Assembly: GCF_964355755.1 (NCBI RefSeq)
Contig: NC_092672.1
Coordinates: 2,976,001-3,040,000 of the forward strand
From: Antedon mediterranea
Lineage: Eukaryota > Animalia > Echinodermata
Reading direction: 5' to 3'
Length of the DNA: 64,000 nucleotides
Shown here: positions 299 through 55,500 of the stretch, piece by piece
Layout: every line of letters starts with the position of its first letter
How positions within the stretch are numbered: the stretch's first letter is position 1
Translations under genes and position numbers: made by a program
Notes under the pieces: generated by a model
What the model was told of the DNA's origin: nothing
Seen by the model: only the letters and a program-made list of their open reading frames with translations
Databases searched by the model: none

Positions 299-7732
<7,434 letters not shown>

Positions 7733-14832: not shown

Positions 14833-25152
<10,320 letters not shown>

Positions 25153-34800: not shown

Positions 34801-35115
34801 GCATACAGAGGCAGAAAGGCAATAGCTACACCCCATGACACGTTAGAAAGACAACCTGCAAGCGCCCGTTTTTCAGGCGGAAACATTTCCATTAAAAGCA
34901 CGAATGATGGAACATTTACACACTGAAAATAATACAAACGGTATTAATTATGGTAGAAAACGGAGCTATAAGTTTTAGTTATAATATAATGCACTGATTC
35001 TAGAAAATAATGCCCTACAGCATTCAATGTGAAGGTTTGAAATGAAAGTCTGAAAGGATACATAGAGTTCTGCTTTAGAGTTCTTGTGGCGTCATGTTTT
35101 TTAGCTGCCAACTAA

Positions 35116-35247
35116 TTCTTAGTTCCCACTAGAGACTCAACGCAAGTTCGACCAATCACAAGCGATGGAATATTCGAACTGTAGCTTGTCATTGATCAAC
35201 TCGCTTGGTCTATGTCCTTGCGTATTCCTCCTAGTGGGAATCAAGCT
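35116..35247. mobile_element. MITE family A, diverged
   Basis: ttagttcccactag...ctagtgggaatcaagct followed by taa. Confidence 0.7.
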
Positions 35248-36099: not shown

Positions 36100-36376
36100 A
36101 GAGACCAATTTACACAGACGAGCGGTGTAACGGAAAACGGAAAACCGCGTAGCTTGTCGCGCGTAAAATCTGTATCTATATCCTGAGCAGAAACCGCCGC
36201 CCGTCCGCTCCGTGTGTGTAATTTGGCCTTGATACTATTACGCAGAAACGCGTTGGTAGAACGAGAGAAGAGAGAGAAGATCAGTATTCTGTCTCAGTGT
36301 CCCCTACGGATTCGTACGTTGTGTGTAAATGGTCATAAAGAATAGCAAAGATTCTATTTGTCTGTGTATTGGCCTC
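36100..36376. mobile_element. Harbinger-like MITE(s), ggccaatttacacagacg family
   Basis: agaccaatttacacagacgagcgg...tgtgtaatttggcct plus a second right-arm fragment; related to 22140-22316. Confidence 0.6.
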
Positions 36377-36965
36377 AATAAACATTATGATGTATGGCGT
36401 GTTCTGGCACCATGGAGCGGACGTTTCAGCTCAGGATAGATACATATTCCTACGGGCTTGTCGGGCGGATCATTAATTTATGAATTTAAGTATCTCATTG
36501 TGTTTATTTGTATCTGTGTATCCCTGCGTAGCACACTTAAATAAGGAATAAAACAAATAAAGAATAAATGGAACCATCTTTCTATTATTACTATAATGGT
36601 AATTTCGAACTGACTGGAAATCGAATTCTATAGATGGAGACAAAGCAGATTAATTTTGAGAGTTCTAGGCCTAATGGCAGCAAATTAGCGAAATCTGTTT
36701 ATCTGTAGACTTACTACAAAGAATCTAACCTCATTGACCACTGTTGATTCTCCGTTGTTCAACATGTACTCATGTACATTCGGACAGCCTATCGTTTCAT
36801 TCGTCAACGTACCATTGTATATTCCATATATCAAACAGCTCTCGTATTCAACTATAATATCACTGTGTTCCTTACTTACGAAATAGCTTCTGATTTACTT
36901 AAACTCATAATAGTTTTCAGAAATGTGATGAAGATGAAAGCCACGATGTGAAGTGCATGTACCAT

Positions 36966-38330
36966 TTATTTATTTTATTTATTCAATTTCCAGGTATACA
37001 GACAACAACATAAACAAACGAAGTGTGGATGGAGTACCATGTGGATTGCCAACAGTGGAAGCACTATCAAAGTGGCTCTCCAATACTCCAAACCACATAC
37101 ATAAATCACATAAAAATTGAAGACACACATAAACTTTAAAATATATAAAATACAGATCAAAAGATCATAAATATGAAAACTAAAAAATGACATAAATAGT
37201 AAAAATTCAAAACAAAAAAGGCAAAAACTAATTGAGCAATCACCAATTATAAGAAATAATTGTAATTACACAAAGAAATGTACAATTTAAAGTTCAGTAA
37301 TAGTTGAATGAAGAGAATTTTTAAATTGGCTGAAGCTAAATAATAATCGGTCTTTGATGGGGTCAGGGATATTTTGCCAAATACGTGGAAACTGATTGAA
37401 TAACGAGAATTTTAGACAGTTGGTTCTTGCAAATTTGTGTTTAAAAATAACTTTTTCAGGGTGTCAGGGTTAAAATCAATATGACCATAAAAACACTTAA
37501 CTACAAAAATAATACTGAGATACTTTAATCTCTGGTCGATCGAAGGCAACTTTAACCTAAGTAATCGCATCTCGTAACCACCAGGAACACATAACTTGGT
37601 GACTCGACGAAGGGATTTATTAATAGCAGTAATGTGCTGCTTTTGATGTGGAACCCAAACGGGGGCAGCATATTCCAGTATTGGTCTATACATAACCCAT
37701 TAAAAAGACGAAGCATAATATCCGAGTCATTTACTGACACAAAGCGTTTAATAAACCCAAGAATTTGGAGCGATTTAGTAGAGACGGCATTAACATGCTT
37801 GGACCTAGAGGTCAGAAAAGAAATGGATACCAAGGTATTTGTGGGAGGAAACAGGAGAGAGTTCAACAGAACGGATACTATAAAAATTGTGGATGGGATT
37901 TCTCCTACGTGTAATATGAAGAACCTAGCACTTAGCGGCATTCAACTTCATGGCATTGTTTTCACACCACTCATCTATGCGATTTAAATCATTTTGGAGA
38001 GAAACCACATCAACATTAGAGCATATTGGCCGAAATATGACTGTATCGTCAGCATACTGCCTGAGTTTGGAGATGACAGACATTGGAAGGTCAAAAACAA
38101 ACGCATTAAATAGGATGGGGCCCAAAACAGAGCCCTGTGGAACCCCGGAATTGACATCATTCCATTCGGACACCTGACCATTAATGAGGACATGTTGCTG
38201 CCGACCTGAAAGAAATGAATCTATCCAGCCTCTAGCATGTGCCCACACACTCCGAAATCATGGAGTTTATGAAGAAGCTTAGAGTGGCTGACGCGATCAA
38301 ACGCCTTTTCCCAGTCCAGAAAAATAGCAT
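36966..38330 (-). mobile_element. 5'-truncated, frameshifted non-LTR retrotransposon (CR1/L2/Jockey group RT)
   Basis: RT motifs DWKKAFDRVSH-like, WIDSFLSGRQQ, GVPQGSVLGPILF, QYADDT, RPILEYAAPVW across several frames; (AAAT)n-like tail at 36966-36985; inserted at CAT in pseudogene exon 1. Confidence 0.9.
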
Positions 38331-39093
38331 CATAGTCCCATATACACATACTACCAACAGCAACGTCAAGTGATATCTTCCCCATGGTTTAAGACTTCTT
38401 AAAATGTCGTCAACATCCATCTATATGATGAATATCGTGTATTTTAGTGATATTTTAAAATTGTTCTACTGCAGTTACTGCAGTCATAACTACATTTTAA
38501 TGTTTGTTTTTAATGTTGGTTCGATTTAATTCATTGGATGGACCGTGCAGAAAGGAGGCTTTTTGAATAGCGCGCGAACAAACGTACAAGCTCTCTCGTT
38601 TCCCTCTTTCTCTCTCCCTAATTTAGAAAATAGATTACTAATGTAACTACTACTAGGCCTACCTTAGACTTTTCAGCTGCTACGTTTTAGTACTTCTTGC
38701 GTTCGTCTCAAAATGTTTACCCTCTATACCCTTTGGAATCGAATGCTATATTGGCTTACGTCTGTGTCATCATGATGTATATAAATGAGGATATGAAATA
38801 TAATGAGCTAATAATATTTAATATTCAAAGTTAAATGTCTTGTGTACTAGTTACTACTCGCAATACATGTAGTTAACCAAATGGTTGTGTGCGTTTTTTT
38901 ATGACCATCCAATATTTTTATTATTTTTAGAATCACACAGGCTCAGATAACGATGTAACGATCTGTATCTTCAATAGGCCTCCATAGTTTTTACTTTATC
39001 ATATGCCTGTATTTTATTAATGGCAAACGTCTATTTTGACAATCGAATGATGAGTACAATTATGTGTGTAAAATCCTTATATAGGCTTTCTAA

Positions 39094-39258
39094 AGCTTGG
39101 TTCCCACTAGAACGTAACGCAACGCAAGTGAATTGACCAATCACAAGCGATGGCTTATTCGCTTTTGATTGCTAACTGTCTATAACTTCGCTTGTCATTG
39201 GTTAAAACGCTTGCGTTGCGTTTACGTCCTTGCGTTACGTTCTAGTGGGAACCAAGCT
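39094..39258. mobile_element. MITE family A (PIF/Harbinger-like), intact copy
   Basis: Perfect TIR AGCTTGGTTCCCACTAGAACGTAACGCAA with TAA TSD (39091-93, 39259-61). Confidence 0.9.
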
Positions 39259-39609
39259 TAACACTGGTACACTTTTTATTAGATTAGAATCTATTTTAAG
39301 ATTGAGGGCGCTCTGTCTAAATTTTCGTATTTTATTATTGTGTCATCGATCATTTTGGAAAAACCACGAGCTCATCTCTCTCACCCTCAGGACTAGCTTT
39401 TTTGTAAGAAGTGCAGAAATCACAATTTATTAGCTTGCTTTATTACGTAGTTTTAAGTTTATCATTATGTATTTATTCAATCTGTTTCGGTTATCTTTAA
39501 TTAGAGCCAGTGCCTGACCTAGGTTGTCTTCCTCTTTAGCTTAGTTACCAGACTGTCACTCTCTGCGTACACACTACACTACCAGCCAGGAGAGCGGAGG
39601 TCAGGTAGG

Positions 39610-39929
39610 TAAAGAGACTGTTTATGTTTACTTATTAACCTAGGAGGACAATTAAGTCTCTTCGGTGTAACTACACACTCATCGTTTGTACTCACCTAAT
39701 CCTTTCTAGGCTGGTACGTGATGGGTATAGTTTGTGTCCTTCTTTGGTTGTGTCTTCGCTTCAAGAGATCGAGTTTTGCCTCTCGCACATTCAACGCCCG
39801 GGGCTGGTCGTGACGTATCTCGCCACTGGCCAGTCCCAGGGCCGGATTCGGGGGTTGAGTGCGCGTAGGCCCGGCGATTGGCTGTGACGTATAGATGACG
39901 TAACCAATAGCCAATCGCCAGGCACTACA
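39610..39929 (-). repeat. 3' LTR
   Basis: Base-for-base identical to 51600-51919 on visual comparison; reads TGTAGTG...CTCTTTA on the minus strand. Confidence 0.97.
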
Positions 39930-39950
39930 ATCCTCCTCGTTTTATTTTCT
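39930..39950 (-). other. Polypurine tract
   Basis: Minus strand AGAAAATAAACGAGGAGGAT directly abuts the TGT start of the 3' LTR. Confidence 0.75.
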
Positions 39951-40039
39951 TTGTTTCCTGCCCCCCTGACTATTCTCTGACTGGTCTTCCCAAGGGAGAC
40001 AGGCGCATTTTAGTTCACCGTCAGTGTCTGACATTGCTG

Positions 40040-40210
40040 TTCAATTTGATATTGGATTTCAAGTTCATTTGGAAGTTCTTTTGATTTCCAGTTCCTTTTA
40101 AAGTTCATTTGATTTCAAGTTCATATGAAAGTTCCTTTGATTTCCAGTTCCTTTTAAAGTTCATTTGATAGTTCCTTTGAAAGTGCATTTTGATTTTAAG
40201 TTCATTTCTC
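40040..40210. repeat. Short degenerate tandem repeats in the element 3' UTR
   Basis: About ten copies of (a/c)agttc(a/c)ttt(g/t), alternating with gatttc. Confidence 0.75.
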
Positions 40211-41267
40211 CATGGTGGGTCCTCCACTCCTTCCTCTTCTTTCTTTTATTTTTTTTTTTTTTTTTATTTTTTTTTTTTTTAACATGTAACACAACGGGGG
40301 GCACAGCCCCAACAAGAACAGGATTTGAAAAACGGAACACCAGAACGTCAAGGTGGGGGAATTACCCCAACAATTTGAACATATGACAGCCAACAGGGGA
40401 CTAAAGAGTCCCGAATAAAAAATGTTGCCATAACAATCGAACAATGGGCAATACATACGAACAGTTGAAATAAAGAAACAAGAAAATCAAATCCCTTCAA
40501 GCCATGTGGCATAGGGTATACATCGGGTTGCTGCCCGGCACCGTGTTCCAGGGAACATTGGCACCTGACAGCCCCCCGGAAGAGAAAAAATCTGAGGAAC
40601 ACCGTTCTAGGGGTACAGAATTACAGATTTGAGAAAAGAAGGCACAAGCCTATGGGGATTGGCAAAAATTTAGCAAACAACAGTAAAATTTTGTTCTGGA
40701 ATTCCAGTATATAGGGCTGACTGTTTGCGTGTATACAAAATATTCTAATTAGATGAGAGAAATCGTCAAAAAGAGACCGCACTGACAATCGTAATTGAAA
40801 CAAGGGACTTACGGTCCCAGCTAAATAAGTAGAGGACATGTTGGACCTCAAATTTTGGGGTGGGAAGAGGATTTGCTCTTCGCCAACTTTTGGGCGTGCG
40901 GTGACTAAGGACAGACAATTGTCCTGGGGTACAAAAATGTTATACGCAAGTACACCAAGAAGGGGTGTACTGTATTCAAGTGATTTAGAACGGTGTGGTA
41001 TATAATAATCGTTTTGAAGAATTGAGTCCTGTTAAAGAATTGAGTTCTTTTACTCTCTTTTCATACTAACCGTAGCGCCCCTGGGCGGTGCGGCCAGTCA
41101 TGTTGATTTCATTGGTCCATTTTTTTTTTTTTTTTTCTTTTAAATGTGGTTCCCATACTAACCGTAGCGCCCCTGGGCGGTGCGGCCAGTGATGAAACTG
41201 TGTTGATTTCATTGGTCCAATTTTTTAATTTTTTTTTTTTTTTTTTTTTATATAGTCCAGTGGCACT

Positions 41268-42992
41268 TCAGGCGTCCAACTCCTCTGCGAGGGTCAGCTG
41301 CTCGATGCACACGCGGTGCATGCGGGCGGCCGCCTCTCGCAGGGCGCTGCTGGAGGATGACAAGGCTGCTGCTGCCAGTCGTTGGTTCGCAGTATACGCC
41401 TCTCTCAGCAGTCGGCGGGCTTCCTCATCTAAAGCTTCCGCTGCCCGCTGCGGTGTTGTGGAGGACTGTTGAGGGAGCTTCGGAGATCCCATACTAGCCG
41501 TAGCGCCCCTGGGCGGTGCGGCCAGTGATGAAGATTCCGGTGCCGGTTCCATTGGTCCTGGAGCTCTCGACGATGGCGGAGGGCATGAGGGCAGGCCTCC
41601 GTACTTTTCGTTGAGTTCATGAAGTCGTTTCGGGTTAGCCCTCATGGCCTCTGCCAGCAGTGGGCACAGACAGAAAGGGTGCAGCATCACCAGGGCGGTG
41701 ACCTGATTTCTGATGTCCCTTTCCATTGACGGCGCCTTCCAATTTACTGCCTGAGCTGTAAGCGTGAGTTGACGCAACCACTTGTTGCCCAGGCCGCAGG
41801 CTCCGGGCCTCAGGAAGTACTTTCTCAAAAAATCAAAAGCCTTCCTCAGAGTTGAGAGACCATCTGGAAGCAGGGGGATCAGTTCTTGAAGGTATCTCCA
41901 GGCTGTCCTCATCTTATGGTTGTCTTGATGGTGTACATACTTTGCCACAACCTCTGGAGCATGCACATTGAGGTGGTCCATTGCCGAGCCTTGCAGACCG
42001 CAAGCTGGCACTGGGCACGCATACCCCGTTCCCTTCTTTGCTGCGGGAGTGGCAGGGTGCCGCGAGAAATCTGATTGTTCTCCTGCTGACGGGTCCACGA
42101 CCTCCGCCGGAACGACGTAAGGTTTACGCCTTGATGATTTTGATCGGGGCGAAGGTTTAGTCCGCTCTGCCGCCCTGGCAGCAGGCCGACCCCTAGCGTC
42201 CCTTGATGACTTTGACCGGGCCGAAGGTTTAGTCCGCTCTGCCGCCCTGGCAGCAGGCCGACCCCTAGCGTCTCCGGACGGGTTCTTCAGCCTGAAGTCC
42301 TGACAAATAAAAGTTGTTTTGCTTGCCTCGTCTCTTAGGAAACGCGTCATGAGCTCCCCCACCGTCTCTGCCCTAGGCGGAAACGGATGGATAGAACAGA
42401 TGATGCGGTCCGGTCCGATTGTGGATACCACCTTCGATTGAAGCAGAACACCCTTCCTGGCTAGGCTTTGAATCTCACAGCGAGCATCCGACGAAAGGTC
42501 CGACCCAGGAGGCCGCGGAACGCCAGCCACCTCTATATTGGCACGAAACATCTCTGCATCCTCTGGTGATAAGGCCACCATACCATCGAACGCACCCCTG
42601 CCACTCACTCCCGAGATCCGCCGGATCCACAAGACTTGGCCCAGCGCGACTCGAGGCTGTGAAGGGGACAACATGGATGGTGATGGGGGGCGGAGAGGCG
42701 ACATCGGATCTTCACGCTCCATCTCCTTTTCTGCTTGCTGGGGGAACGACTCTGCCCCTGGGGGCAAGAGAAGCGCCGCCACAGCCGGTATGTCAGTGGG
42801 GACCGAGTCCTGCACTTCCCCATGGGGTCCGTGCCGGGGCTCGTCCTCGGTTGTACCTACCACTACCCCAGGGGGTAGTGGAGTGGTCGCCCTCTCGGAG
42901 GCCCGGGCAGGGGCCGGCAGAGAAGGGAACTCCCTCTCCACTAGCTCTGCCCAGTCCATTGGCGTCACAGCTTCTGAGTAACTCTTTTCCAT
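41268..42992 (-). CDS. Retrotransposon ORF3, unknown function (574 aa from ATG 42992; 588 aa from 43034)
   Basis: Long uninterrupted ORF after pol on the same strand. Pro-rich, 24-aa basic tandem duplication, CPVPAC-x8-HLNVH, C-terminal Ala/Arg/Glu helix. Confidence 0.8.
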   Translation of the reverse strand: MEKSYSEAVTPMDWAELVEREFPSLPAPARASERATTPLPPGVVVGTTEDEPRHGPHGEVQDSVPTDIPAVAALLLPPGAESFPQQAEKEMEREDPMSPLRPPSPSMLSPSQPRVALGQVLWIRRISGVSGRGAFDGMVALSPEDAEMFRANIEVAGVPRPPGSDLSSDARCEIQSLARKGVLLQSKVVSTIGPDRIICSIHPFPPRAETVGELMTRFLRDEASKTTFICQDFRLKNPSGDARGRPAARAAERTKPSARSKSSRDARGRPAARAAERTKPSPRSKSSRRKPYVVPAEVVDPSAGEQSDFSRHPATPAAKKGTGYACPVPACGLQGSAMDHLNVHAPEVVAKYVHHQDNHKMRTAWRYLQELIPLLPDGLSTLRKAFDFLRKYFLRPGACGLGNKWLRQLTLTAQAVNWKAPSMERDIRNQVTALVMLHPFCLCPLLAEAMRANPKRLHELNEKYGGLPSCPPPSSRAPGPMEPAPESSSLAAPPRGATASMGSPKLPQQSSTTPQRAAEALDEEARRLLREAYTANQRLAAAALSSSSSALREAAARMHRVCIEQLTLAEELDA

Positions 42993-43089
42993 ATTCGATC
43001 TGAAAGACATAATGAAAAGCACCTTTCCAATCATGGTGAATGTGAATTACAGTGTTAGTCAGCCCGGGGTGAGACGTTTGAATGCGGAT

Positions 43090-46000
43090 CTACTCGGCAC
43101 ACTTGGTACATTTAAATCGATCGATATCGATAGCTTCCGCTGGAGTAATGTTGACGCATGCTCCATGGTACCATTCACCGCACAGATCGCACTCGATCAT
43201 AAAACGCCCCTCCCATGGCTTCCTACAAGTACAGTAAATGCCGTCATCTTCGGCATCCCCGTCGGGGTCGGAATTCGTCAGATCAAGGTTGGTGATCCAA
43301 TTTGGCAAATCCCGATCCCGGCAGAGCTTCAGTTTATCGTGGTGGATTACAAATACTTTATTACGGAGGCGTACACGGAAGGCGTACGGGGCCAGCACCT
43401 CAGTGACTACCCCCGGACCCTTCCATGGCGCATTCAATTTCTTGTTTTTCCCCTTTATTTTGGTCTGGTCGAACACATAGACTTTGTCCCCAACTGCGTA
43501 TGTACGCTCTAGTAGCTTAAGGTCGTATTGATACTTATTGCGCTTTTGCATTGATTTTAGATGTGTTCTTGCAATATCGTGCGCTAACTTCATATTTTCT
43601 ACTAGGCCAGTGGTGTATGAATATGGATCAGTAATTGTTGTGCCCCCTGAAGAGCCGAACATGAGGTCGGGTGGTGTCGATACCTCCCTGCCCAGCATCA
43701 TCAGGTTTGGTGTAGATTGGGTACTTCGGCATACCGTGGCCCTAATTGCACTCGTTATCTGGGGCAGATATTTATCCCAGTCCTTTTGTTGTTTTCCCAC
43801 AAAACACCGGACCGCATTCATCACAGTCAGATTGTAACGTTCTACCTGACCGTTAGCTGAAGGACGGTACGGCGTGGTGTGGGTCTTATTAATGAGGAGA
43901 ATCTTGCAGAGCTCCCCGAAGAGATCGCTCTCAAAATTCGGACCCTGGTCCGAGTGCAATTGCAGCGGCATACCAAATCTGGAGAAGAATTCCCTTACCA
44001 GTACCTCGGCAGTCAATTGTGCAGTCTGCCGGGGTACCGGGTAGGCCTCTACCCACTTTGTAAATTGATCCACTACCATCAATACATACAGATTCCCACT
44101 ACTGGACTGAGGAAATGGTCCTGCAAAGTCTATGTGAACCCTTTCCATTGGGGCTCCCGAGTGGTAATTAATCTGTTCCGAGCGGCCTTTCTTATTCCCC
44201 CTCTTGTGGCTGTTACATATGGGACAGCCTATGACATATCTTTCGATATCCCCGGCCATCCCAAACCAGTAGTATCGTTGTTTAAGACGGAGCTTAGTCC
44301 GTTTGATACCTTGGTGGGCGGCCGATGGGAGATCATGATAAGCTTGCATTGTTGTTTTAATCAATGACTTCGGAAGAACAAGAAGGTCCTCCTCCCCCTG
44401 TTTATCTTGAATGAATAACACCCCGTCTCGCAAGCACATCCTTTCCTTACTCAACCAATAATGTTTTGTTGCCGGGCTAGTAGCGAAAAGCTCATTTGCC
44501 GAAGGCAGCGCGTCACCCTTAAACCAGAGTAACACGGGCCCCAGCTCCTGGTCTTTCCCCTGAGCCTCTTGGATTTCCTGGGTAGAGAAACCCCAATGAG
44601 ATTGCTCCGCCCTTTCCGTGGTTAGTTGATGAACATGTTGGGAGGGCAGGAAAGGCTGCGAGATAGGTTGATTTTGATGTGCGTGCACACCCGTCAGCGG
44701 AATGACGTCATCAACCTGGTCGATGAACGCCCCCCATTGCTGGTGCGCACGTACACAGTACTTACACCCCTTGCAAGGTAAATCAGATAATTTCACCCCA
44801 TGTTTGTAATGATTAGCCATTTCAGGTGCCCGTGACAATGCATCGGCATTGACATGTTTTTTACCAGGGCGGTGTTCTACTATCATTACATACTGGCTAA
44901 GTTCTTCTATCCAGCGGGCCAGTTGCCCTTGGGGTTCCTTGAACCTCAGAAGCCAAGTCAGGCTACTGTGGTCGGTGCGAACCTTAAATGGTTTACCCAG
45001 CAAGTAGTGTCTAAATTGACGTGTGAATTTCACAATCGCCAACAGTTCTTTACGGGTGGTACAGTAGCGTTGCTGCTCTGATGTTAATGCTAAACTAGCA
45101 TAAGCAATCACACGCTCCTGACCCCCTTGTAATTGGGACAATTCACCTCCGATTGCCTGATCTGATGCATCGGTATCAAGGACGAACATGTCATCAGGAT
45201 TCGGAAGTGACAAAACTGGTGGTTGTGTCAATTTAGATTTAATTGAGTGAAATGCATCTATTTGAGGTTTGTCCCATCGGAACTCCCCCTTCTTTGCAAC
45301 TGCATAAAGAGGTCTTGTTAATTCGGCAAAGTGGGGAATGAATGCCCTATGGTAATTTGCTAGGCCAAGGAAGCGTTGAGCCTCCTTGTAGTTCTTAAGA
45401 TCAGGCCACCCACACACTGCCGCGATATCGGTATCGGACATCTCGAGAGTGTTGCGGGAGACCATACGGCCCAGAAATTCCACTTTCCTCTGGAAAAATA
45501 GACATTTCTTTGGTTTTAGTTTCAGATTATATTGTCGGAACCGACCTAGGGCCTCCCTTAAGTTATTGCTGTGGTCTTCAAATGATTTGCCCAGGATAAC
45601 CACGTCGTCGAGGAAAGCCAGAGCAGTCTGCCAATTTAGACCACGCAAAACCATATTGATGACCCTAGAGAAGGTTGCCGGACTATTACACAGGCCAAAG
45701 GGCATTTTTACAAACTCGAACAGGCCATATTTGGTGACGAAAGCGGTCTTTTTGCGATCGTCGGCATTGAGGTTTATTTGCCAATAACCAGAAATGGCGT
45801 CCAATTTAGAGAACCATTGATTACCCGACAATGTGTCGAGGCAATCCTCTAAAATTGGTAATGGATATACATCCTTTACCGTGATGTTATTTAAAGCCCT
45901 ATAGTCTATGCAAAATCTGACGTTTCCATCCCTTTTCCGGACTAGGACTGGGGCGGAGGACCATTCAGAATTGGACGGCTGAATGATACCCCCCTCCAGC

Positions 46001-47016
46001 ATTTTATCCAGTTCTTTGCGTTCTTCATCGGCAAAGTGTAACGGGGTACGGCGAAGTCGGTGTCTCACTGGTGCTGCATCAGACGTATCTACCCGGTGAT
46101 CAATATTAGGGACCTCCCCAATATCGAATTGATCCCTGGCAAACACATCTGCGAACTCAGTAAGCATCTCCTTCACCACCCCTGCCTGATCTTCCGATAA
46201 ATTGGTAATAGAATTTTCATAAGTTGTACGCATGTGATGTGGCAATGCGTGTGTGGCCGGAGAGGTTTCCCCCGGATGGGTGAAAACTTCCCCAGCTACA
46301 CAGGATTCTATTTCAGATGCAAACCCAATTTCTAAACCTGCTTTGACAGTTACGTATTTGTTGGTTGTATTGACCATGCAGATCACAGGCGATTCACCTG
46401 CGGTGTGCACAGTTCTAGGAATTGTTAGGTTATTGTGGCCATGAGGTTCTACAATGTAGTCATGCAATTTGGTATCTAACTGACAGGAAACATAGGCTAT
46501 TGATGTAGGTGGTATCACACGCCGCTTGCATGTGATTATTCTGCAGCTAGAGGGCGTTGAGGGCGCCATACCATTTTGTATTAATGGGACAGCAACCCCA
46601 CCGACCTTTAACAGCATTTCGCCTATGTTGACATCTGCGTTTGTGCCCCTCATGAAATCCAAACCTAGTAGCATTTCGTCTTCAATCGGTGCAACATAGA
46701 CATAAGTGGGGTAGATGTTTGGCCCAATTTTGAGTTGCACCGGACCTATTTTTCGCCCTTCCATCGAACTACCCTTACCCGCCATGAATAATTTAATAGT
46801 ACCCACGGTGGGCGGAGTAGGGGTAATTGAATGGTATAAGCTATCAGATATAATAGATACAGTCGCTCCACAGTCGACAACAGCGTCAACTTTAACGGAT
46901 GCGACCGTAACTTTAGTGTAGAGTAATGAATTAGATTTCACTCGCTGTACAATAAGTGATTCAGTTGGGTCGCACTCTGGAGTGAACAATTTGGAGTCGA
47001 CCCCTAGTCGTTTAAA
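43090..47016 (-). CDS. pol: Pol polyprotein: protease, RT, RNase H, integrase, C-terminal PHD finger
   Basis: VVDCGAT protease; RFCIDYRALN, MPFGL, FLDD RT; LDTDAS/ELLAI/RTDH RNase H; H-H-C-C plus HIDFAGP, SDQG, VER integrase; C4HC3 PHD. The frame is open up to the slippery site at 47016. Confidence 0.97.
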   Translation of the reverse strand, partial: FKRLGVDSKLFTPECDPTESLIVQRVKSNSLLYTKVTVASVKVDAVVDCGATVSIISDSLYHSITPTPPTVGTIKLFMAGKGSSMEGRKIGPVQLKIGPNIYPTYVYVAPIEDEMLLGLDFMRGTNADVNIGEMLLKVGGVAVPLIQNGMAPSTPSSCRIITCKRRVIPPTSIAYVSCQLDTKLHDYIVEPHGHNNLTIPRTVHTAGESPVICMVNTTNKYVTVKAGLEIGFASEIESCVAGEVFTHPGETSPATHALPHHMRTTYENSITNLSEDQAGVVKEMLTEFADVFARDQFDIGEVPNIDHRVDTSDAAPVRHRLRRTPLHFADEERKELDKMLEGGIIQPSNSEWSSAPVLVRKRDGNVRFCIDYRALNNITVKDVYPLPILEDCLDTLSGNQWFSKLDAISGYWQINLNADDRKKTAFVTKYGLFEFVKMPFGLCNSPATFSRVINMVLRGLNWQTALAFLDDVVILGKSFEDHSNNLREALGRFRQYNLKLKPKKCLFFQRKVEFLGRMVSRNTLEMSDTDIAAVCGWPDLKNYKEAQRFLGLANYHRAFIPHFAELTRPLYAVAKKGEFRWDKPQIDAFHSIKSKLTQPPVLSLPNPDDMFVLDTDASDQAIGGELSQLQGGQERVIAYASLALTSEQQRYCTTRKELLAIVKFTRQFRHYLLGKPFKVRTDHSSLTWLLRFKEPQGQLARWIEELSQYVMIVEHRPGKKHVNADALSRAPEMANHYKHGVKLSDLPCKGCKYCVRAHQQWGAFIDQVDDVIPLTGVHAHQNQPISQPFLPSQHVHQLTTERAEQSHWGFSTQEIQEAQGKDQELGPVLLWFKGDALPSANELFATSPATKHYWLSKERMCLRDGVLFIQDKQGEEDLLVLPKSLIKTTMQAYHDLPSAAHQGIKRTKLRLKQRYYWFGMAGDIERYVIGCPICNSHKRGNKKGRSEQINYHSGAPMERVHIDFAGPFPQSSSGNLYVLMVVDQFTKWVEAYPVPRQTAQLTAEVLVREFFSRFGMPLQLHSDQGPNFESDLFGELCKILLINKTHTTPYRPSANGQVERYNLTVMNAVRCFVGKQQKDWDKYLPQITSAIRATVCRSTQSTPNLMMLGREVSTPPDLMFGSSGGTTITDPYSYTTGLVENMKLAHDIARTHLKSMQKRNKYQYDLKLLERTYAVGDKVYVFDQTKIKGKNKKLNAPWKGPGVVTEVLAPYAFRVRLRNKVFVIHHDKLKLCRDRDLPNWITNLDLTNSDPDGDAEDDGIYCTCRKPWEGRFMIECDLCGEWYHGACVNITPAEAIDIDRFKCTKCAE
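46962..47016 (-). promoter_or_regulatory. -1 programmed ribosomal frameshift signal
   Basis: U UUA AAC at 47016-47010 in the gag frame, 6-nt spacer, then stem GGGUCG-ACUC...GAGU-G-CGACCC; pol is in the -1 frame. Confidence 0.88.
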
Positions 47017-49214
47017 GAGTCTTCTTCATCTACATCGAATTCATGTTCGACTAGATTTAGCCTTCTGTTTTGCTTGAAGTTTGATTTATTATTATGTGGT
47101 CTATTTGAATTATTGGGAGTCTTGGTGGGGCATTCCCTTGCGAAATGACCCTCCTCACCGCAGGAGAAACAGCCGGCCCCTCTCTCTGGAGATCTACGTC
47201 GAGCCGGGGATGGTTGCCTCTCACGCGGCCTATCAAGGCGATCTAATACCTTGTCTAATTTCGAACAAAGGGCCGAGACCTGTTCTTGCAATTCGTTTAT
47301 TCGGGTGTTGGAAGCATGAACAGATTCCCGGTCCAGAGAACGATCTCGATATCGGGCACCATGGGGCGATTGCGGACGTGCAAAACGCACCACGCGCCGT
47401 TTATCCTCCCTTTTAGTTATTTCATTAATCCGCCCAAAGTCACCCTCAGCCTGCAAGTTGCACTCCTGAACACTAGGTTCTGGGTACACCTGGCAGACAG
47501 TGGATGGCTGGGGTGGAGTTTCTGGCAGATGTGTAGTTGGTGTTGAGGCCAATTTAGGTGTTATTATTGGTTCATCGTTGACACTCTGGTGCCATTCGAT
47601 AAGTCGGATAGCTTCAGGAATTGTTTTGGGGCGCTGCAGGCTAGCAAATTTGCCGCTTGGCCTATCAACACACCCACGACAAAACTTTAAAGCTGCCATT
47701 TCTTGGATCCAATGATTGGTGGCCCCTTCACCCCCTTGCGTTCTATACGCCTTGGCTGCGGCTTTAAGCACTCTGGCTCCCCACTCACGTAGGGACTCCA
47801 GGTCTTTTTGGAAAAGTTTTTCGAATTTTGCAGCCAGAAGAGATTGGTCTTGGGCGGAGCCAAAGTATTCGTTAAAACTAACGATGAGCCTCTCGTAAGA
47901 GACTGCACTACCATGCAAGGTCAGCAACGTTTGTAAGTACGCGGCTGCCTGGCCCCTCATGCTCATGTGGAAAGCTTCCTTGCGTTCGGCCCTAGACCAT
48001 CCATTAATCTGGGAAAATCCCTCAAATCTATCATGGAATATTCCCCAGTCGTCATCCCCACCGTGGAATTCTAGATGTTTTTGCGGCCTGAAAGGCTGTT
48101 GACCCCGATGATCACCGCGGCCCCACTCGTCCCGCAAGGGTAGGCGGTCAAGCCTATTCCTCTCGGGGCGAGGAGGTCGAAGGAATCGTCCGAGATCGTG
48201 CTCATAATTTTGATGATCATTTCTCCCACCATAATCACCCATCTGATAATTATCTCGGTTGATGTTTTGTAAGGGTAGTGGTGGTTGATTATAATTCATT
48301 CCAGTGGCGGAAGGATGACGAGGACGATAGCAATCGTTGTCCAGGTACCCCCGGTTGTAATTATCACCTCCGTACCCATGGTCACCTTGAGGGTAGGAAG
48401 GTCGAGTTCCCCATGAGGGGTCTCGGTTCTTATTTTGAGCAGTAGGGCGTTGAGGTAGGCCATGTTCAACAGCGGCATCCCCCCGTCCTACGTTGGTGTT
48501 ACAATTTATTTCTTTTTCTCGATCCGAATGATCGGGACGGTAGCCGTGTTCTACAGCTGGATAGCCATAAAAACCAGCCCCAACCCGGTCATAAGGATGG
48601 GCGTCTTCGTTTCCCCCAGCTCCCGTGCGAGCACGTGTACTAGGAGACGGTGAAGTATCCACCATGTGCACTCCAGAACGATCAAGAGATCTACCCCGAC
48701 CAGCAGCAACAGGGCCGCTGGTCGCAGTGTCACCCCTTCTCATTGGAGTACGCGGAAAAACCTCATCGCCACCCATATCGCCCGCCCGGTGGTTGTTGTG
48801 GAGCGTACGGGAATCTAGGTTGCTAGGCACGCTTGCCTGGTCTGCATAGCGTTGATCGCCTCCGGCCCCCGGATGCAAGGATGGGTCGCTCGGCAAAGGT
48901 GGTACGGGGGTGCAGGCCTGCTCGTGAGCTTGATCGTGCTCTCCCGAACCGTTACCCACATCTCCATACCCCCCAGTCGGCGGTCCCATTCTCACATACC
49001 GAGAGTTAATGGCATAGTCCATGTTAAAGGACAAAAAGTCGAACGAATTATCGCCGACTGCCCGTGCTAGATCTTGTGGGTTTGTGATATTCCCATAATT
49101 ATCCCTGTAGGCCCTGATTTTCTCGGCCAAGGGTGGGGGTAAACCCTGTGGGAAATCTTTCGCCCTACGGACAAAGTTGATCTTAAAAGGTATTGGTTCG
49201 ATGGTTTTTGGCAT
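47004..49214 (-). CDS. gag: Gag, 736 aa
   Basis: Capsid-like region (DWGIFHDRFE...NGWSRAER), coiled coil, zinc knuckle CFSCGEEGHFAREC; lies upstream of pol. Confidence 0.93.
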   Translation of the reverse strand: MPKTIEPIPFKINFVRRAKDFPQGLPPPLAEKIRAYRDNYGNITNPQDLARAVGDNSFDFLSFNMDYAINSRYVRMGPPTGGYGDVGNGSGEHDQAHEQACTPVPPLPSDPSLHPGAGGDQRYADQASVPSNLDSRTLHNNHRAGDMGGDEVFPRTPMRRGDTATSGPVAAGRGRSLDRSGVHMVDTSPSPSTRARTGAGGNEDAHPYDRVGAGFYGYPAVEHGYRPDHSDREKEINCNTNVGRGDAAVEHGLPQRPTAQNKNRDPSWGTRPSYPQGDHGYGGDNYNRGYLDNDCYRPRHPSATGMNYNQPPLPLQNINRDNYQMGDYGGRNDHQNYEHDLGRFLRPPRPERNRLDRLPLRDEWGRGDHRGQQPFRPQKHLEFHGGDDDWGIFHDRFEGFSQINGWSRAERKEAFHMSMRGQAAAYLQTLLTLHGSAVSYERLIVSFNEYFGSAQDQSLLAAKFEKLFQKDLESLREWGARVLKAAAKAYRTQGGEGATNHWIQEMAALKFCRGCVDRPSGKFASLQRPKTIPEAIRLIEWHQSVNDEPIITPKLASTPTTHLPETPPQPSTVCQVYPEPSVQECNLQAEGDFGRINEITKREDKRRVVRFARPQSPHGARYRDRSLDRESVHASNTRINELQEQVSALCSKLDKVLDRLDRPRERQPSPARRRSPERGAGCFSCGEEGHFARECPTKTPNNSNRPHNNKSNFKQNRRLNLVEHEFDVDEEDSLND

Positions 49215-51587
49215 CCCTGGAAGATAAGAAAAATCCTTCCCAATTAGTTTTATTCTTCATTTATAGGCCTGGTAAGTACTCCCGTCCCCCCGTGCATCCA
49301 ACCAGCGAGCGGAGGTAGCATCGGTCTGATGCTGTTTCGATGATTATTTTTGCGTCTCACTCGTTGGGTGCCCAGAGAGAACAGGGGTAGTACCAGCCCA
49401 ATACACACCTAGCGCTAATCACAGTTCAATTAAATATAATTACAATGTAAGGGTTACCTCCCCCCATCACAAAAATTTTAGCTAATTATGTGTACATATA
49501 ATGATTTATGGGCACTCACATTATGCCACGAAAATAAAATAAAAGGACTACACAAATAGTACAGGTTAATGAAAAGAATATATGATATACAAGGCATGTG
49601 ATAAGAGATACAGATCGTTACCAGATGTTATTGTAGCCAAGTGTCAATGACATGGACAAAACAAAACATTACAGATTACACACTGTGACAGTTAAGAATC
49701 GAAATTCATACAAGACATGTTGAAAAACAATCATGATAAGAAAAAGATCATACAAGAACATGCGAAAATAAATGAGACAAGACACGGAAAAAATTTTATT
49801 TTGAAAGAAAAAGGCATACAAGACATATAAAATAATTCTAGGCAAAAACCTAAGATAATCAATAAATAAATAAATATGCCTAAAGTATCAAAAAATAATA
49901 TTCGAACCAAAAATCAATAAATATAATAATAAAATAAATATAGGTACCGGCCTAGCCTGTACACTAAAAAATATTTCAATTTTAAAAAATCTATGCTAAA
50001 TAAAGACATTCTAAAATAATAACAATAAACAGGAATAATTAAGCCTATGCATAATTACCCAAAAAATAAAAATAATTCATGAAAATAATAGGTAGGAAAT
50101 TCCACTAGAATAACCACCTAATAAATAAAACATCGTCTAACTAAAACAATAAAAATTTACTAATAATTTTACGTCGAAAATAGTTCAATAAAAATAAAAT
50201 AAATCAATCGGAAAATAACTTAATTCCAAGCAATCAATATACACGAATGAATAAATAAATAAATAATAATCCTAATGTCATTTCCATCCAAGTGGGAGAG
50301 ACAAAATAACTATAATCTAACTACCCCGCGATAGCACAGGCCAGAAAATTCCAGCCCGTCTATCGTCAGGCCATAAATCAATCCAGACAATACACAGACC
50401 GGGAGACGAGCTCTCAGTTCTGCATAAAACTAAAATCTAAAAATAGTAAGGAGTATCCCTATATTATTCTACCAATCAGAATACAGTACTCACCTAACGT
50501 CATCATCGAAAGTCGTAAACAACTGTTGACCTCGTTGATGCAAGCAGCTATCCGCGAGGGTAGCAAGCGAATGCGTGCTCGCGATTGGCTAGCGATGAAT
50601 CACACGTGAGAAGACTGATAGGCAGAAAGTTGTTGTTTGACAAGGCGAACCGCTCAGGAATGGCGGCATTCTCAAAGCAACGGCAGTGTAGATAACTACT
50701 GTTTAACCCCGTTGTTCGTGAACACAAGTCGCCAAACCAGAGTCGGATTACCCTAACAAGCAACACCCTCCAATAACCTCGTTCTGTTGGTCGTAGGTTA
50801 TGGTAGTGTAATTTAAGGATTAAAAATAATGATAATAAAAATCGTGGATTTGAATAAGCTAATAAATAATCAAAATACGCGAGAGATGCCAACCACAAAA
50901 AATGGCGTCACTCACTAAAAAATTGTTTCGAAATTAAATTTAATATTTTTCCTACAAATTATAAATTTGCTAATTATTATGTTTTGTACATTTTTCCAAT
51001 AATATTCTGAATCACGGGCCAGACATATTCATTGTTCTGGAATCACGGGCCCAGTGCGTTAAACATACAATAAAAAACGCTGTTCCATGTTCACGTGCAT
51101 GGTATGTACGTAGCTTCGGCTAGGTCACGGGCCCAGGGCAGGGCCCAGCCACATCGCTACACACACTAATATCTTTTTCGGATCATTAGGAAATAAAAAA
51201 TGTACCTATCCGAAGAATCAGAGTACAAATGGGTCCCCCATAAATATACTGTCTGACAATTCGGATTACGGCACAAATCCAAGACGGAGAAATAATAATA
51301 TAATTTACTATAAACAACTCCCGACGGCTCGACCCCATCGATCGGACGAAACCTGCAGGCACGACAGCAGATTTCGGCCGCGAGACGGAGACGAGTCGTT
51401 GACGAGGTGGGAGATGGGTAGTGGGACGTGCTGCCCAGCAAACACAGAGGTCGTTCCTCCAGCATTGCCTCTGGGCAACACCACAGGGCGAAACGAGATG
51501 TGCGAACTAGAACAACACTCCTACCTTCCCAAACAGCTACACGCGGTTGACAGTGTCCCCCGCCGAGGCAAAAGGAACACCAGTTTA

Positions 51588-51598
51588 CCTCGTCGCCA
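51588..51598 (-). other. Primer binding site, probably tRNA-Ser(GCT)
   Basis: TGGCGACGAGG 1-2 nt inside the 5' LTR; complementary to the ...CCUCGUCGCCA 3' end I recall for metazoan tRNA-Ser(GCU). Confidence 0.75.
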
Positions 51599-51599
51599 T

Positions 51600-51919
51600 T
51601 AAAGAGACTGTTTATGTTTACTTATTAACCTAGGAGGACAATTAAGTCTCTTCGGTGTAACTACACACTCATCGTTTGTACTCACCTAATCCTTTCTAGG
51701 CTGGTACGTGATGGGTATAGTTTGTGTCCTTCTTTGGTTGTGTCTTCGCTTCAAGAGATCGAGTTTTGCCTCTCGCACATTCAACGCCCGGGGCTGGTCG
51801 TGACGTATCTCGCCACTGGCCAGTCCCAGGGCCGGATTCGGGGGTTGAGTGCGCGTAGGCCCGGCGATTGGCTGTGACGTATAGATGACGTAACCAATAG
51901 CCAATCGCCAGGCACTACA
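51600..51919 (-). repeat. 5' LTR with CCAAT boxes and CRE half-sites
   Basis: Identical to the 3' LTR; three CCAAT/ATTGG and three ACGTCA motifs in its first ~120 nt. Confidence 0.97.
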
Positions 51920-52539
51920 TAGGTGTGTGGAGAGAGGTTTACTATTATCTAGGGTAAGCCTATGCCTAGGCCTAGGTCTACTGGCACTAGCACTATCAAG
52001 TTTTTTCGCCCTTATTATCTAGGCCTATAATGTGATTATCAAACGCTATTACCTGTATCCAATTAAACTTAATTAATTCATGTAATAACTAATATATTGC
52101 TGATTGTAGATACCAGCATAATCAAAATGCATACCATGGTCCATACCACTTCACTTGCACAATATAAGTACTAAAATGTGCATTTATGTATTTGAAAAGG
52201 GATGCAATTTAAGCAGTGGCTGATCTGTGAAGTACAAAATAAGTATGTAGGCCTATGTATGTAATTGTTACCTGTCTTGTCTTATTTTGTAATGCAACCA
52301 AATTATCTAAGTTACCGCTCTGTATGTTATATTTTTTATACCGAAATAGATAATTTAATTAATTAAATAACTTCAGATTGTGCTGTTTCGAAGAAAAAAG
52401 GCAATCAAATAATATATACAGACGGTAGTATGCCTCAATAAATAGTGGCCTAAATAATAGTAGCCTAGTTCTGAATCAGAAACATAAAATATGTATATTC
52501 TATTTTCTCACAGATATCTGATTTTACAATAAAGTAAAG

Positions 52540-55500
52540 ATGGGCCTCGAAGATGGTCTATTGTCCGATGAGGGCGGGTTTGAATTTAGTGATCAGGATA
52601 TCCGCAAGTGTAAGTATTATAGTGAAATCCAGATTTTGGATGAATCTGACCACACATTTTTTACGTTAATTTCATTAATCTATTTAGTTCTGACATTTTG
52701 AAACAATTTTTTTTGGACTGTTTTAGGTTTGACATATTTCCATAAAAATTAAACAAAAACAGATAATGATATAATAATAAATACTTTGAAACATCTCTTT
52801 TACTTTGCAAATATTTTTTCATTTACAGTATAACTGCTTGCCACCTTCCAGTTTCCAACCCTTAACATATGAAATTATTAATACATAAACTATTAAAGTA
52901 AATATTCTTTGATATTGTTTAACCAGATATCAGGTTGATATTGATACCTTAATTTTAGTTTCTGAGTAAAAGATAAGTAAAAAGAAATCTAGGAATGATA
53001 ATAATTTTCTTTTACAAGAAATTAAATGAATGGGAAAATTCTTACTATGATTTAATGTTGTAAAACGTAGAACCTCAAATATAATGGAAAGCCTACATTA
53101 AGCTCTTTCTACACTATCAAACTAGTTTGACAAAAAAAGTGCCCAAATATGGTAGTGATATGCCCAAATATGGTAGTGATATGCCCAAATATGGTAGTGA
53201 TATGCCCAAATATGGTAGTGATATGCCCAAATATGGTAGTGATATGCCCAAATATGGTAGTGATATGCCCAAATATGGTAGTGATATGCCCAAATATGGT
53301 AGTGATAAGCCCAAATATGGTAGTGGTATGCCCAAATATGGTAGTGGTATGCCCAAATATGGTAGTGATATGCCCAAATATGGTAGTGATATGATATCAT
53401 CATGTCCATATCTCTATCTGCACATAATTTCTCTGAAATTGCAATTATTCTGTAGTCAGATTTTACTAACAAATTTTACAAAATCTGATGTGCCCATATG
53501 TGGACAAGATGATGTCATATCACTACCACATTTGCGAATATCACTACCATATTTGGAAATATCACTACCATATTTGGGCACATCACACCTTTTTTGTCAA
53601 ACTAGTTTGATAGTGTAGACAGAGCTTTAAGGAATAGTCAACATATCTGCAAAGGATAAATTCATGGTTTAATCATGGAGGTTTACGGGATGTGAAAAAA
53701 ATAAAAAAATAGTGGGATCGATAGATGAAATACAATTACTATTTTTTGCAGCATTTATCCGTAAGGTGTATGGCATCCTTTGTGCTCAACTTCTGCTTAC
53801 TATTGGTATTATGAGCATCTTTACATTCAGGCAAGTCAATACAGTTTATAATAATAATAAATAATGAATGATGTATTAATAATAATATTAATTGGTAAAC
53901 GCTTTACTAAAAATATAATTGATATTGTTTGATTCTACAGTGAAGGTGTGAAAAAATATGCATTTGAAAATTCTTGGCCTTTCTGGGTAGCTTTGTGAGT
54001 ATATTTAAATTACCCAATTTTATTATTTTTTGATTATTAATTAGTTTTTTGCAGGTTGTGGTAGCTTTTACAAATGTCTTATATAACTCAAAATATTTAC
54101 TATGTTTATTAAAAATTAATTTTTAAAATTAAAAATACAGTAGTATTTTACATACTTGACGCCATTCAAACATTTAAAGCTCTGTCCACATTATCAAACT
54201 ATTTGACAAAAATAGTGTGATGTGCCCAAATATGGTAGTGATATGACCAAATATTGTAGTGATATGACATGATGATGTGCCCAAATATGGTAGTGATATG
54301 ACCAAATATGGTAGTGATATGACATCATCATGTCCATATATGGGCACATCATCATTTTATGTCACATAAATGTTGATAGTGCAGACAGAGCTTTAAGGAG
54401 AAGAGATTTACTTCATTACTTCAGTACAGTACGTTTGTTTATTGGATATGTATGTTACTTGTATATTTTTTTATATGTACAATATATATTGAGACATTAT
54501 TTCTCGAATGCTGTATATGATGTTTTAAATTAACTTGGTGCTGGAAAACTAGTGGTACTGTACTTTTTTACTAGTGGTACTGTACTTTCTTACTAGTGGT
54601 ACTGTACTTTTTTACTAGTGGTACTGTACTTTCTTACTAGTGGTACTGTACTTTTTACTAGTGGTACTGTACTTTTTACTAGTGGTACTGTACTTTTTTA
54701 CTAGTGGTACTGTACTTTCTTACTAGTGGTACTGTACTTTCTTACTAGTGGTACTGTACTTTCTTACTAGTGGTACTGTACTTTTTTACTAGTGGTACTG
54801 TACTTTCTTACTAGTGGTACTGTACTTTTTTACTAGTGGTACTGTACTTTCTTACTAGTGGTACTGTACTTTCTTACTAGTGGTACTGTACTTTTTTACT
54901 AGTGGTACTGTACTTTTTTACTAGTGGTACTGTACTTTTTTACTAGTGGTACTGTACTTTCTTACTAGTGGTACTGTACTTTTTTACTAGTGGTACTGTA
55001 CTTTTTTACTAGTGGTACTGTACTTTTTTACTAGTGGTACTGTACTTTTTTACTAGTGGTACTGTACTTTTTACTAGTGGTACTGTACTTTTTTACTAGT
55101 GGTACTGTACTTTTTTACTAGTGGTACTGTACTTTCTTACTAGTGGTACTGTACTTTTTACTAGTGGTACTGTACTTTTTACTAGTGGTACTGTACTTTT
55201 TTACTAGTGGTACTGTACTTTTTTACTAGTGGTACTGTACTTTCTTACTAGTGGTACTGTACTTTCTTACTAGTGGTACTGTACTTTTTACTAGTGGTAC
55301 TGTACTTTTTTACTAGTGGTACTGTACTTTTTTACTAGTGGTACTGTACTTTTTACTAGTGGTACTGTACTTTCTTACTAGTGGTACTGTACTTTTTTAC
55401 TAGTGGTACTGTACTTTCTTACTAGTGGTACTGTACTTTTTTACTAGTGGTACTGTACTTTTTTACTAGTGGTACTGTACTTTTTTACTAGTGGTACTGT

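What the first reader, a model, noticed from the sequence alone, without database searches (positions are those of the whole stretch)
39500..51960. The element appears to sit in the first non-coding exon of the TMBIM gene, as PHD targeting would predict
Seen: removing the element joins two GC-richer flanks (...accagccaggagagcggaggtcagg TAGG tgtgtggagagagg...ctagg|GTAAG). These end in a strong donor at 51954. The TMBIM ATG exon starts at an acceptor (52512-13) only 26 nt before the ATG, so an upstream exon is expected. The divergent SLC22 duplicate starts ~1 kb to the left. Inference: the target was a TSS-proximal region, and this allele separates TMBIM from its promoter by 12 kb.
Basis: inference. 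Interest (0 to 1): 0.75.

Follow-up and report, generated by a model that had tools for sequence, protein, structure and literature searches.

The report
Histone-reader retrotransposon in promoter-proximal intron
A young jumping gene, whose insertion enzyme ends in a finger predicted to read the histone mark of active gene starts, sits about 150-200 bases inside the first intron (not in the first exon) of a membrane-protein gene, so it likely leaves the promoter attached and is one hint, not proof, that the finger steers where copies land.

Summary
The element is real: a 12,310-nt Ty3/Gypsy retrotransposon on the minus strand, with identical 320-nt LTRs, a TAGG target duplication and an integrase ending in a PHF2-like PHD finger. 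It is not in the first exon of the main TMBIM transcript. Spliced contigs from two runs of two studies join exon 2 (52514) to sequence ending at 39403 or 39456, skipping both GC-rich flanks and the 51954 donor. The element lies in intron 1, 149-202 nt below the first donor and 232-255 nt below the contigs' 5' ends. Promoter and exon 1 stay joined; intron 1 grows from about 0.8 to 13.1 kb. Depth arithmetic points to an empty allele in the same sample. 'TSS-proximal' therefore holds, but one site is weak evidence for PHD targeting: chance is about 3-14%, and LTR elements favour promoters anyway. The neighbouring SLC22 copy is a pseudogene. The scan noted this PHD-integrase clade before in another genome (e1-9099856).

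The parts
39351..39403 (+). TMBIM first non-coding exon, short form (donor GTAAGA at 39404); left end = contig end, not a mapped TSS
   Evidence: X9 contig: 53 loose letters before 52514, last 30 match 39374-39403 at 27 of 30 (compared by eye); bin depth 27.17 computed vs 27.2 seen
39374..39456 (+). TMBIM first non-coding exon, long form (followed in the window by a weak donor, GTTTAT at 39457)
   Evidence: X8 contig: 83 loose letters before 52514, last 30 match 39427-39456 at 29 of 30; explains 25.6 of 26.3 bin depth
39404..52513 (+). TMBIM intron 1: 796 nt when empty, 13,110 nt with the element (743 / 13,057 from the second donor)
39540..39604 (+). Exon-like stretch not used in the two contigs: acceptor-like AGs before 39540, 39545, 39552 and donor-like CAG|GTAGGT at 39605; possible minor cassette exon
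   Evidence: 11-13 of 16 pyrimidines; donor 8 of 9; none at 8 of 9 in 4173 nt of other TMBIM intron; no ATG
39606..39609 (.). Left target-site duplication TAGG
39610..39929 (-). 3' LTR, 320 nt, TG...TA ends
39931..39945 (-). Polypurine tract
41268..43046 (-). Third open frame (592 aa stop to stop), no family found
43090..47025 (-). pol: protease, RT, RNase H, integrase (H2C2 + core), C-terminal PHD
43099..43233 (-). PHD finger with Y/W/M/W at the four PHF2 cage positions
47004..49256 (-). gag with CCHC knuckle
49000..51100 (+). A-rich stretch with 24 AATAAA on the TMBIM sense strand (28 in the whole element)
51588..51598 (-). Primer-binding site starting TGG (tRNA-Ser assignment recalled, not tested)
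51600..51919 (-). 5' LTR; CCAAT and TGACGT motifs cluster at 51867-51905, at the end facing exon 2
51920..51923 (.). Right target-site duplication TAGG
51951..51959 (+). Donor-like AGG|GTAAGC (GT at 51954), not used in the two contigs
52514..52609 (+). TMBIM exon 2 with ATG at 52540
   Evidence: both contigs cover exactly 52514-52609 and go on with exon 3 letters
52540..59166 (+). TMBIM / Bax inhibitor-1 family coding region, 9 exons, 236 aa, one GC-AG intron
34037..38420 (-). Divergent SLC22-like duplicate: frameshift and stops in coding exon 1, split by a ~1.37-kb insertion (about 36966-38330), no match to the 3' exons of the intact copy; pseudogene
39090..39261 (.). High-copy inverted-repeat element just upstream of exon 1

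Best explanation
A young Ty3/Gypsy retrotransposon with a PHD-tipped integrase sits antisense in intron 1 of the TMBIM gene, 149-202 nt below the first splice donor; it is likely present on only one allele and is predicted to be spliced out with the intron, so it would lengthen intron 1 without detaching the promoter. Shown: element anatomy, target duplication, exon 1 to exon 2 joins in two runs. Inferred: the second (empty) allele, from de Bruijn branch and depth arithmetic; that contig 5' ends lie near the TSS; that the site lies on an H3K4me3 nucleosome just downstream of the TSS. Mechanism I commit to for site choice: the integrase PHD tethers the integration complex to H3K4me3 nucleosomes, biasing copies to the first few hundred bases of active genes, and survivors are those in the first intron in antisense orientation (about 0.4 for this step alone; neither binding nor bias is shown). 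Likely cost to the host allele: some loss of full-length mRNA through the 24 sense-strand AATAAA at 49000-51100 (untested).
For:: X8 record 24 (862 nt, depth 171) and X9 record 28 (845 nt, depth 33.6) cover exactly 52514-52609, go on with exon 3 letters, and enter from letters matching 39427-39456 (29 of 30) and 39374-39403 (27 of 30). Their remaining lengths (683, 696) fit 641 nt of CDS plus a short 3' UTR. Bin depths fit the whole loose parts lying in 39270-39823. X1: a flank contig starts exactly at 51920; the LTR-flank junction has depth 136.5 against 257-292 for the flank; a further unlisted contig of depth 221.5 ending at 51949 reproduces the bin mean (361.75 vs 361.7). X7 (organism B): a 1007-nt contig aligns 52594 to 51920 and goes on for 279 letters that do not align to the LTR. 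LTRs identical over 320 nt, ORFs open. PHD closest to PHF2, KIAA1718, PHF8 (E 8.5e-15 to 1.9e-13); PHF2 cage Y7/Y14/M20/W29 (PMC9898751) aligns to Y/W/M/W; Y-or-F, M and W kept in 109 of 112 homologous PHDs.
Against: Contigs cannot show a start, and drop rare isoforms (tool notes). Only the last 30 of the 83 and 53 loose letters were seen. X8 is only guessed to be RNA and X9 has no kind on record; their splicing is the evidence. The X8 join needs a weak donor (4 of 9) and differs from the window in its last letter. The genotypes of X8 and X9 at this site are unknown, so splicing across the filled 13-kb intron was not observed. The letters of the empty junction were not displayed in X1 or X7. 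The second cage wall is aromatic with the other three in place in only 41 of 112 homologues.
Confidence: 0.72

Rival explanations
1. One reading: the joined flanks (39550-39609 + 51924-51953) are the first non-coding exon, and the element cuts TMBIM off from its promoter.
For: Left flank unusually GC-rich (57%, top 0.7% of host windows); donor 7 of 9 at 51954; exon 2 needs an upstream exon.
Against: Both spliced contigs join 39403 or 39456 straight to 52514; X8 and X9 have no depth at 51942-52105 and no joint is listed; leftover depth in the 39270-39823 bin is about 0 for X9 and at most 6.5 against 171 for X8.
Confidence: 0.05
2. The target is a minor or tissue-specific 5'-UTR exon (cassette or alternative first exon) inside intron 1, ending at 39604, 51922 or 51953; the element sits on its donor or in it, for that isoform only.
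For: Three acceptor-like AGs with 11-13 of 16 pyrimidines before 39540-39552, and donor-like sites of 8, 7 and 7 of 9 within 50 nt of the empty site, against none at 8 of 9 in 4173 nt of other TMBIM intron; contigs drop rare forms.
Against: No contig listed with such a join in either RNA-like run (12 loose-end rows and 32 piece rows were not shown); crude consensus scoring only.
Confidence: 0.2
3. The position owes nothing to the PHD: open promoter-proximal chromatin attracts LTR integration generally, and selection spares antisense intronic copies.
For: De novo Drosophila LTR insertions are 1.94-2.28-fold enriched in promoters (PMC10018349, section read); Springer favours first and second introns of active genes (bioRxiv 10.1101/2025.10.13.681963); young antisense intronic ERVs show no splicing (PMC1794541); chance 3-14%.
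Against: The PHD is kept at the integrase C-terminus across a wide clade with M and W in 112 of 112, which suggests a chromatin-binding use.
Confidence: 0.5
4. On the filled allele the 5' LTR fires outward (antisense to the element) and splices from the latent 51954 donor to exon 2, giving TMBIM a new LTR-driven first exon.
For: CCAAT and TGACGT motifs at 51867-51905 lie 50-90 nt from the donor; the only ATG there opens a 2-codon frame; an LTR-end-plus-flank contig from another site is present in RNA-like run X8 at depth 4.18.
Against: No LTR-51953-52514 contig listed; no RNA known from a carrier; the Springer precedent concerns forward-oriented copies; the X8 contig may be DNA or read-through.
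Confidence: 0.12

Closest known systems
Chromoviruses (Ty3/Gypsy with an integrase C-terminal chromodomain; as summarised in PMC6673714, passages read)
   Same: Histone-reader module at the integrase C-terminus, proposed to steer integration.
   Different: Reader here is a PHD of the PHF2/BPTF type, predicted to bind the active mark H3K4me3 rather than heterochromatin; steering not shown.
Drosophila Springer (bioRxiv 10.1101/2025.10.13.681963; abstract and sections 6, 10 read)
   Same: [quoted passage not shown]
   Different: Springer targets an AT-rich motif and rewires hosts from forward-oriented copies; this copy is antisense, has a TAGG target in a GC-richer patch, and carries a PHD.
Fission yeast Tf1 (PMC3553992, search listing only)
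   Same: LTR element integrating at Pol II promoters.
   Different: This site is downstream of the TSS in intron 1; Tf1's upstream, nucleosome-free targets and its chromodomain are recalled, not checked here.
CopiaMBD of arthropods (PMC6673714) and Ginger1-9_HM transposase with C-terminal PHD (PMC2836005; passages read)
   Same: Mobile-element proteins carrying a captured chromatin-reader domain; a Gypsy-like integrase with a C-terminal PHD in Ginger.
   Different: Copia with MBD reads methyl-CpG; Ginger is a DNA transposon with Ulp1 plus PHD, not an LTR element.
PHD-integrase Gypsy clade noted earlier in this scan (e1-9099856)
   Same: Same architecture; homologues in molluscs and a sea urchin.
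   Different: Here an insertion site is placed against spliced transcripts of the host gene.

Membership tests
Ty3/Gypsy LTR retrotransposon | Two direct LTRs with target-site duplication | tested here: met
   320-nt identical LTRs, TAGG on both sides
Ty3/Gypsy LTR retrotransposon | gag then pol in the order PR-RT-RH-INT | tested here: met
   Pfam positions 37-125, 361-518, 583-711, 884-1054; CCHC in gag
Ty3/Gypsy LTR retrotransposon | PBS after the 5' LTR and PPT before the 3' LTR | tested here: met
   tRNA identity recalled only
Ty3/Gypsy LTR retrotransposon | Canonical TG...CA LTR ends (recalled as usual, not universal) | tested here: not met
   LTR reads TG...TA; a variant end, not a bar to membership
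Ty3/Gypsy LTR retrotransposon | Placement in a named clade by RT tree | not tested
   no reference RT set fetched
Chromovirus | Chromodomain at integrase C-terminus | tested here: not met
   PHD (PF00628), no chromodomain among 9 Pfam families
H3K4me3-reader PHD (PHF2/PHF8/BPTF type) | C4HC3 zinc ligands | tested here: met
H3K4me3-reader PHD (PHF2/PHF8/BPTF type) | Cage residues at PHF2 Y7, Y14, M20, W29 | tested here: met
   Y, W, M, W in this copy
H3K4me3-reader PHD (PHF2/PHF8/BPTF type) | Binding to H3K4me3 peptide | not testable with these tools
   needs ITC or pull-down
Promoter-targeting retroelement (Tf1- or Springer-like) | Family-wide enrichment of insertions near TSSs | tested here: inconclusive
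   one mapped site; no genome held; no usable host flanks among 80 related loci (4 showed terminal repeats, all at contig ends)
Insertion in first exon of TMBIM | Transcripts contain 39550-39609 joined to 51924-51953 | tested here: not met
   2 of 2 spliced contigs skip both flanks
TMBIM / Bax inhibitor-1 family | Pfam Bax1-I domain in an open reading frame | tested here: met
   1 of 3 exons scanned passes the cut-off (38.9 vs 34.1 bits), 2 give weak hits in the right order; open 236-aa model; subfamily not assigned

The most novel reading that the evidence does not exclude
A widespread marine-invertebrate Gypsy clade uses an integrase-borne H3K4me3 reader to land on the first nucleosomes downstream of active promoters, the mirror image of chromoviruses, and survives by sitting antisense in first introns. 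This segregating copy, 150-200 nt into TMBIM intron 1 and leaving the overlapping CAG|GTAGGT donor-like site intact, would be a direct example and a natural allele pair for measuring the cost.
Probability: 0.33. Interest if true: 0.8.

Novelty: new variant of a known kind. Interest (0 to 1): 0.45.

Why it matters
If the PHD steers integration, this clade would be an animal LTR element that reads an active-promoter histone mark by itself, without a host adaptor, and a steady source of regulatory mutations at gene starts. Four paper searches returned no paper describing a Gypsy integrase with a C-terminal PHD that targets H3K4me3; the library lacks most subscription journals and Repbase, so this is not proof of absence. 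The locus itself is an ordinary antisense first-intron insertion; its value is as one well-placed data point and, being apparently heterozygous, a ready allele-specific test.

Tried and rejected
No genome is held for this window, so other copies could not be mapped to TSSs. No RNA holder was listed as such; X8 is a guess and X9 has no kind on record. Related loci in metagenome contigs (best 80 of 489) gave no insertion with usable host flanks. Flanks of other insertion sites seen as 30-letter loose ends could not be placed. CpG o/e around the site is not informative (0.3-1.7 per 100 nt). TAGGC/GCCTA motifs are denser in host intron 1 (10 in 796 nt vs 102 in 50,890 nt), but I did not show that they mark promoters, so this is not used as support. 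The third ORF has no Pfam family, no usable Atlas hit and no match in 0 of 80 related loci. The last TMBIM exon had no PDB match. No earlier notes exist for this genome. The 'divergent promoter' argument from the SLC22 copy was dropped because that copy is a pseudogene of unknown activity. No structure or complex prediction was run. Supplementary files were not opened for any paper; lists of element domains there could bear on the novelty claim.
Full report
1. The element. Repeat search and a direct comparison give two identical 320-nt LTRs at 39610-39929 and 51600-51919, each flanked outside by TAGG. The element is 12,310 nt and lies on the minus strand, antisense to TMBIM: PBS beginning TGG at 51598-51588, gag 49256-47004 with a CCHC knuckle, pol 47025-43090 with protease, RT, RNase H, integrase and a C-terminal PHD, a third open frame 43046-41268 without any family, and a polypurine tract before the left LTR. 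The LTR reads TG...TA. Identical LTRs and open frames mark it as young.

2. The host gene. A nine-exon model from the ATG at 52540 to the stop at 59166 gives an open 236-aa protein with eight AG-ended introns, seven GT and one GC. Of three exons scanned, the last passes Pfam Bax1-I and two give weak hits in the right order.

3. Where exon 1 really is. No genome is held. The run search listed 11 runs, none on record as RNA; I laid 4 of them twice. On 51860-53075, X8 (organism A, another sample and study than X1) and X9 (organism B) each have one main contig that covers exactly 52514-52609 and goes on with the first letters of exon 3, so both are spliced. Before 52514 they carry 83 and 53 further letters. 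The last 30 of these match window 39427-39456 at 29 of 30 (X8) and 39374-39403 at 27 of 30 (X9), compared by eye with the print. After 39403 stands GTAAGA; after 39456 the window has the weak GTTTAT, and the X8 letter at the join differs from the window, so that individual's donor may differ. The bin depths fit the whole loose parts lying in 39270-39823: 27.17 computed against 27.2 for X9, and 25.6 of 26.3 for X8. Neither run has depth at 51942-52105 and no joint is listed. Exon 1 is therefore about 39351-39403 or 39374-39456. The target site is in intron 1, 202 or 149 nt below the donor and 255 or 232 nt below the contig ends. Limits: contigs show no true start and drop rare forms; 12 loose-end rows and 32 piece rows were not displayed; whether X8 or X9 carry the element is unknown.

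4. What the GC-rich flank is. 39550-39609 is 57% GC, in the top 0.7% of 5163 host windows; 51924-51953 is 40%. Acceptor-like AGs precede 39540, 39545 and 39552, and donor-like sites stand at 39605 (8 of 9), 51923 (7) and 51954 (7), against none at 8 of 9 in 4173 nt of other TMBIM intron. It could be a minor cassette exon; no displayed contig uses it. The duplicated TAGG is +2 to +5 of the 39605 site, and the LTR's first base restores +6, so that site is unchanged on the filled allele.

5. Empty allele. In X1 a flank contig starts exactly at 51920, which needs two different letters before it. The LTR-flank junction contig (51890-51949) has depth 136.5 against 257-292 for the flank. Total depth at 51944 is 649.9, leaving 221.5 for an unlisted contig; letting it end at 51949 gives a bin mean of 361.75 against 361.7 seen. 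I read this as the empty junction, so sample S1 is likely heterozygous or mixed. In X7 (organism B) a 1007-nt contig aligns from 52594 to 51920 and goes on for 279 letters that did not align to the LTR. In neither case were the empty-site letters displayed; this step is inferred.

6. Consequence for TMBIM. Promoter and exon 1 remain joined; intron 1 grows from 796 to 13,110 nt. The claim of a 12-kb separation from the promoter falls. On the TMBIM strand the element carries 28 AATAAA, 24 of them at 49000-51100, two strong acceptor-like sites (41256, 47417) and two donor-like sites of 8 of 9, so partial premature ending is plausible but untested. Young antisense ERVs in human introns showed no splicing events in PMC1794541 (section 12 read). 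The 5' LTR's CCAAT and TGACGT motifs at 51867-51905 face the unused 51954 donor; an outward LTR-driven first exon is a long shot.

7. The neighbour. The divergent SLC22-like copy starts at 38420, 931 nt left of 39351. Its first coding exon has a frameshifting deletion and stops and is split by an insertion of about 1.37 kb; it shows no match to the 3' exons of the intact copy. It adds little to the promoter argument.

8. PHD targeting. The PHD's best solved relatives are PHF2, KIAA1718 and PHF8 (E 8.5e-15 to 1.9e-13; 37 sequences at E up to 0.001). The PHF2 cage is Y7, Y14, M20, W29 (PMC9898751, passages); this copy has Y, W, M, W. A search with pol residues 900-1310 found 534 proteins among 2423 candidates; of the best 120 listed, 115 carry PF00628 (counted by eye; the query held the PHD, which favours such hits), with named records from molluscs and a sea urchin. 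112 of 120 match a strict PHD pattern; M is kept in 112 of 112 and W in 112 of 112 (the pattern allowed W, Y or F there), three walls in 109 of 112, four in 41 of 112. That H3K4me3 peaks on the first nucleosomes after the TSS is my own knowledge; the site fits it. But with 5-7 gene starts in 51.7 kb of host DNA, a random site falls this close 3-14% of the time, and the finding was picked afterwards. LTR elements in Drosophila favour promoters about twofold (PMC10018349, abstract and section 21), and Springer favours first and second introns of active genes (bioRxiv 10.1101/2025.10.13.681963, abstract and sections 6, 10). Related loci gave no host flanks. Targeting stays an open hypothesis, about 0.35-0.4.

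9. Known and new. Reader domains on retroelements are known: chromoviruses, CopiaMBD, PHDs in non-LTR elements (PMC6673714, passages) and in a Ginger transposase (PMC2836005, passages). Searches listed no paper on a Gypsy integrase PHD targeting H3K4me3; supplements were not opened and most subscription journals are absent. The scan noted the clade earlier in another genome (e1-9099856), an AI note and no independent support.

10. Verdict. Observation partly confirmed; interpretation partly supported. The exon and promoter-separation claims are wrong for the main transcript; the TSS-proximal position is right and now rests on spliced contigs. New variant of a known kind; interest 0.45.

Noticed in passing
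window 41268-43046 (-): Third ORF of 592 aa after pol with an internal repeat; no Pfam family, no usable Atlas hit, no match in 80 related loci.
   Followed up: partly
window 39610-39929, 51600-51919: LTRs end TG...TA instead of the usual TG...CA.
   Followed up: no
window 39601-39610: The target duplication is +2 to +5 of a donor-like CAG|GTAGGT, and the LTR's first base keeps the site unchanged.
   Followed up: partly
window 53830-53831: GC-AG intron in TMBIM between coding exons 2 and 3 of the model; not checked against RNA.
   Followed up: no
window 34037-38420 (-): SLC22-like partial duplicate, frameshifted and split by a ~1.37-kb repeated insertion ending in a TAAA-type tail, probably a LINE fragment (LINE label inferred, no Pfam hit).
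   Followed up: partly
window 63233-63400 (+), ATG near 62294: Next gene looks like an SLC17-type transporter (recalled resemblance, no Pfam hit) with an apparent frame change near 63290; pseudogene or assembly error.
   Followed up: no
window 7057-7437 (+), 15316-18574 (-): Two convergent matrix metalloproteinase genes (Hemopexin, Peptidase_M10).
   Followed up: no
window 39090-39261: Very high-copy inverted-repeat element 90 nt upstream of exon 1, with copies at 17813, 13000, 29000, 35140.
   Followed up: no
run X8, contig laid at window 51879-51919: 313-nt contig (depth 4.18) joining the LTR end to another flank that begins CTAGGCCTAG: a second insertion site whose target resembles TAGG.
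   Followed up: no
run X9, contig laid at window 39697-40134: A related LTR and adjacent 3' region at depth 104.5 while pol has no cover in that run: a relative may be expressed in organism B.
   Followed up: no
window 54541-56260, 53120-53400, 59167-59565: Tandem arrays of 22, 21 and 14 nt inside TMBIM introns and 3' UTR.
   Followed up: no
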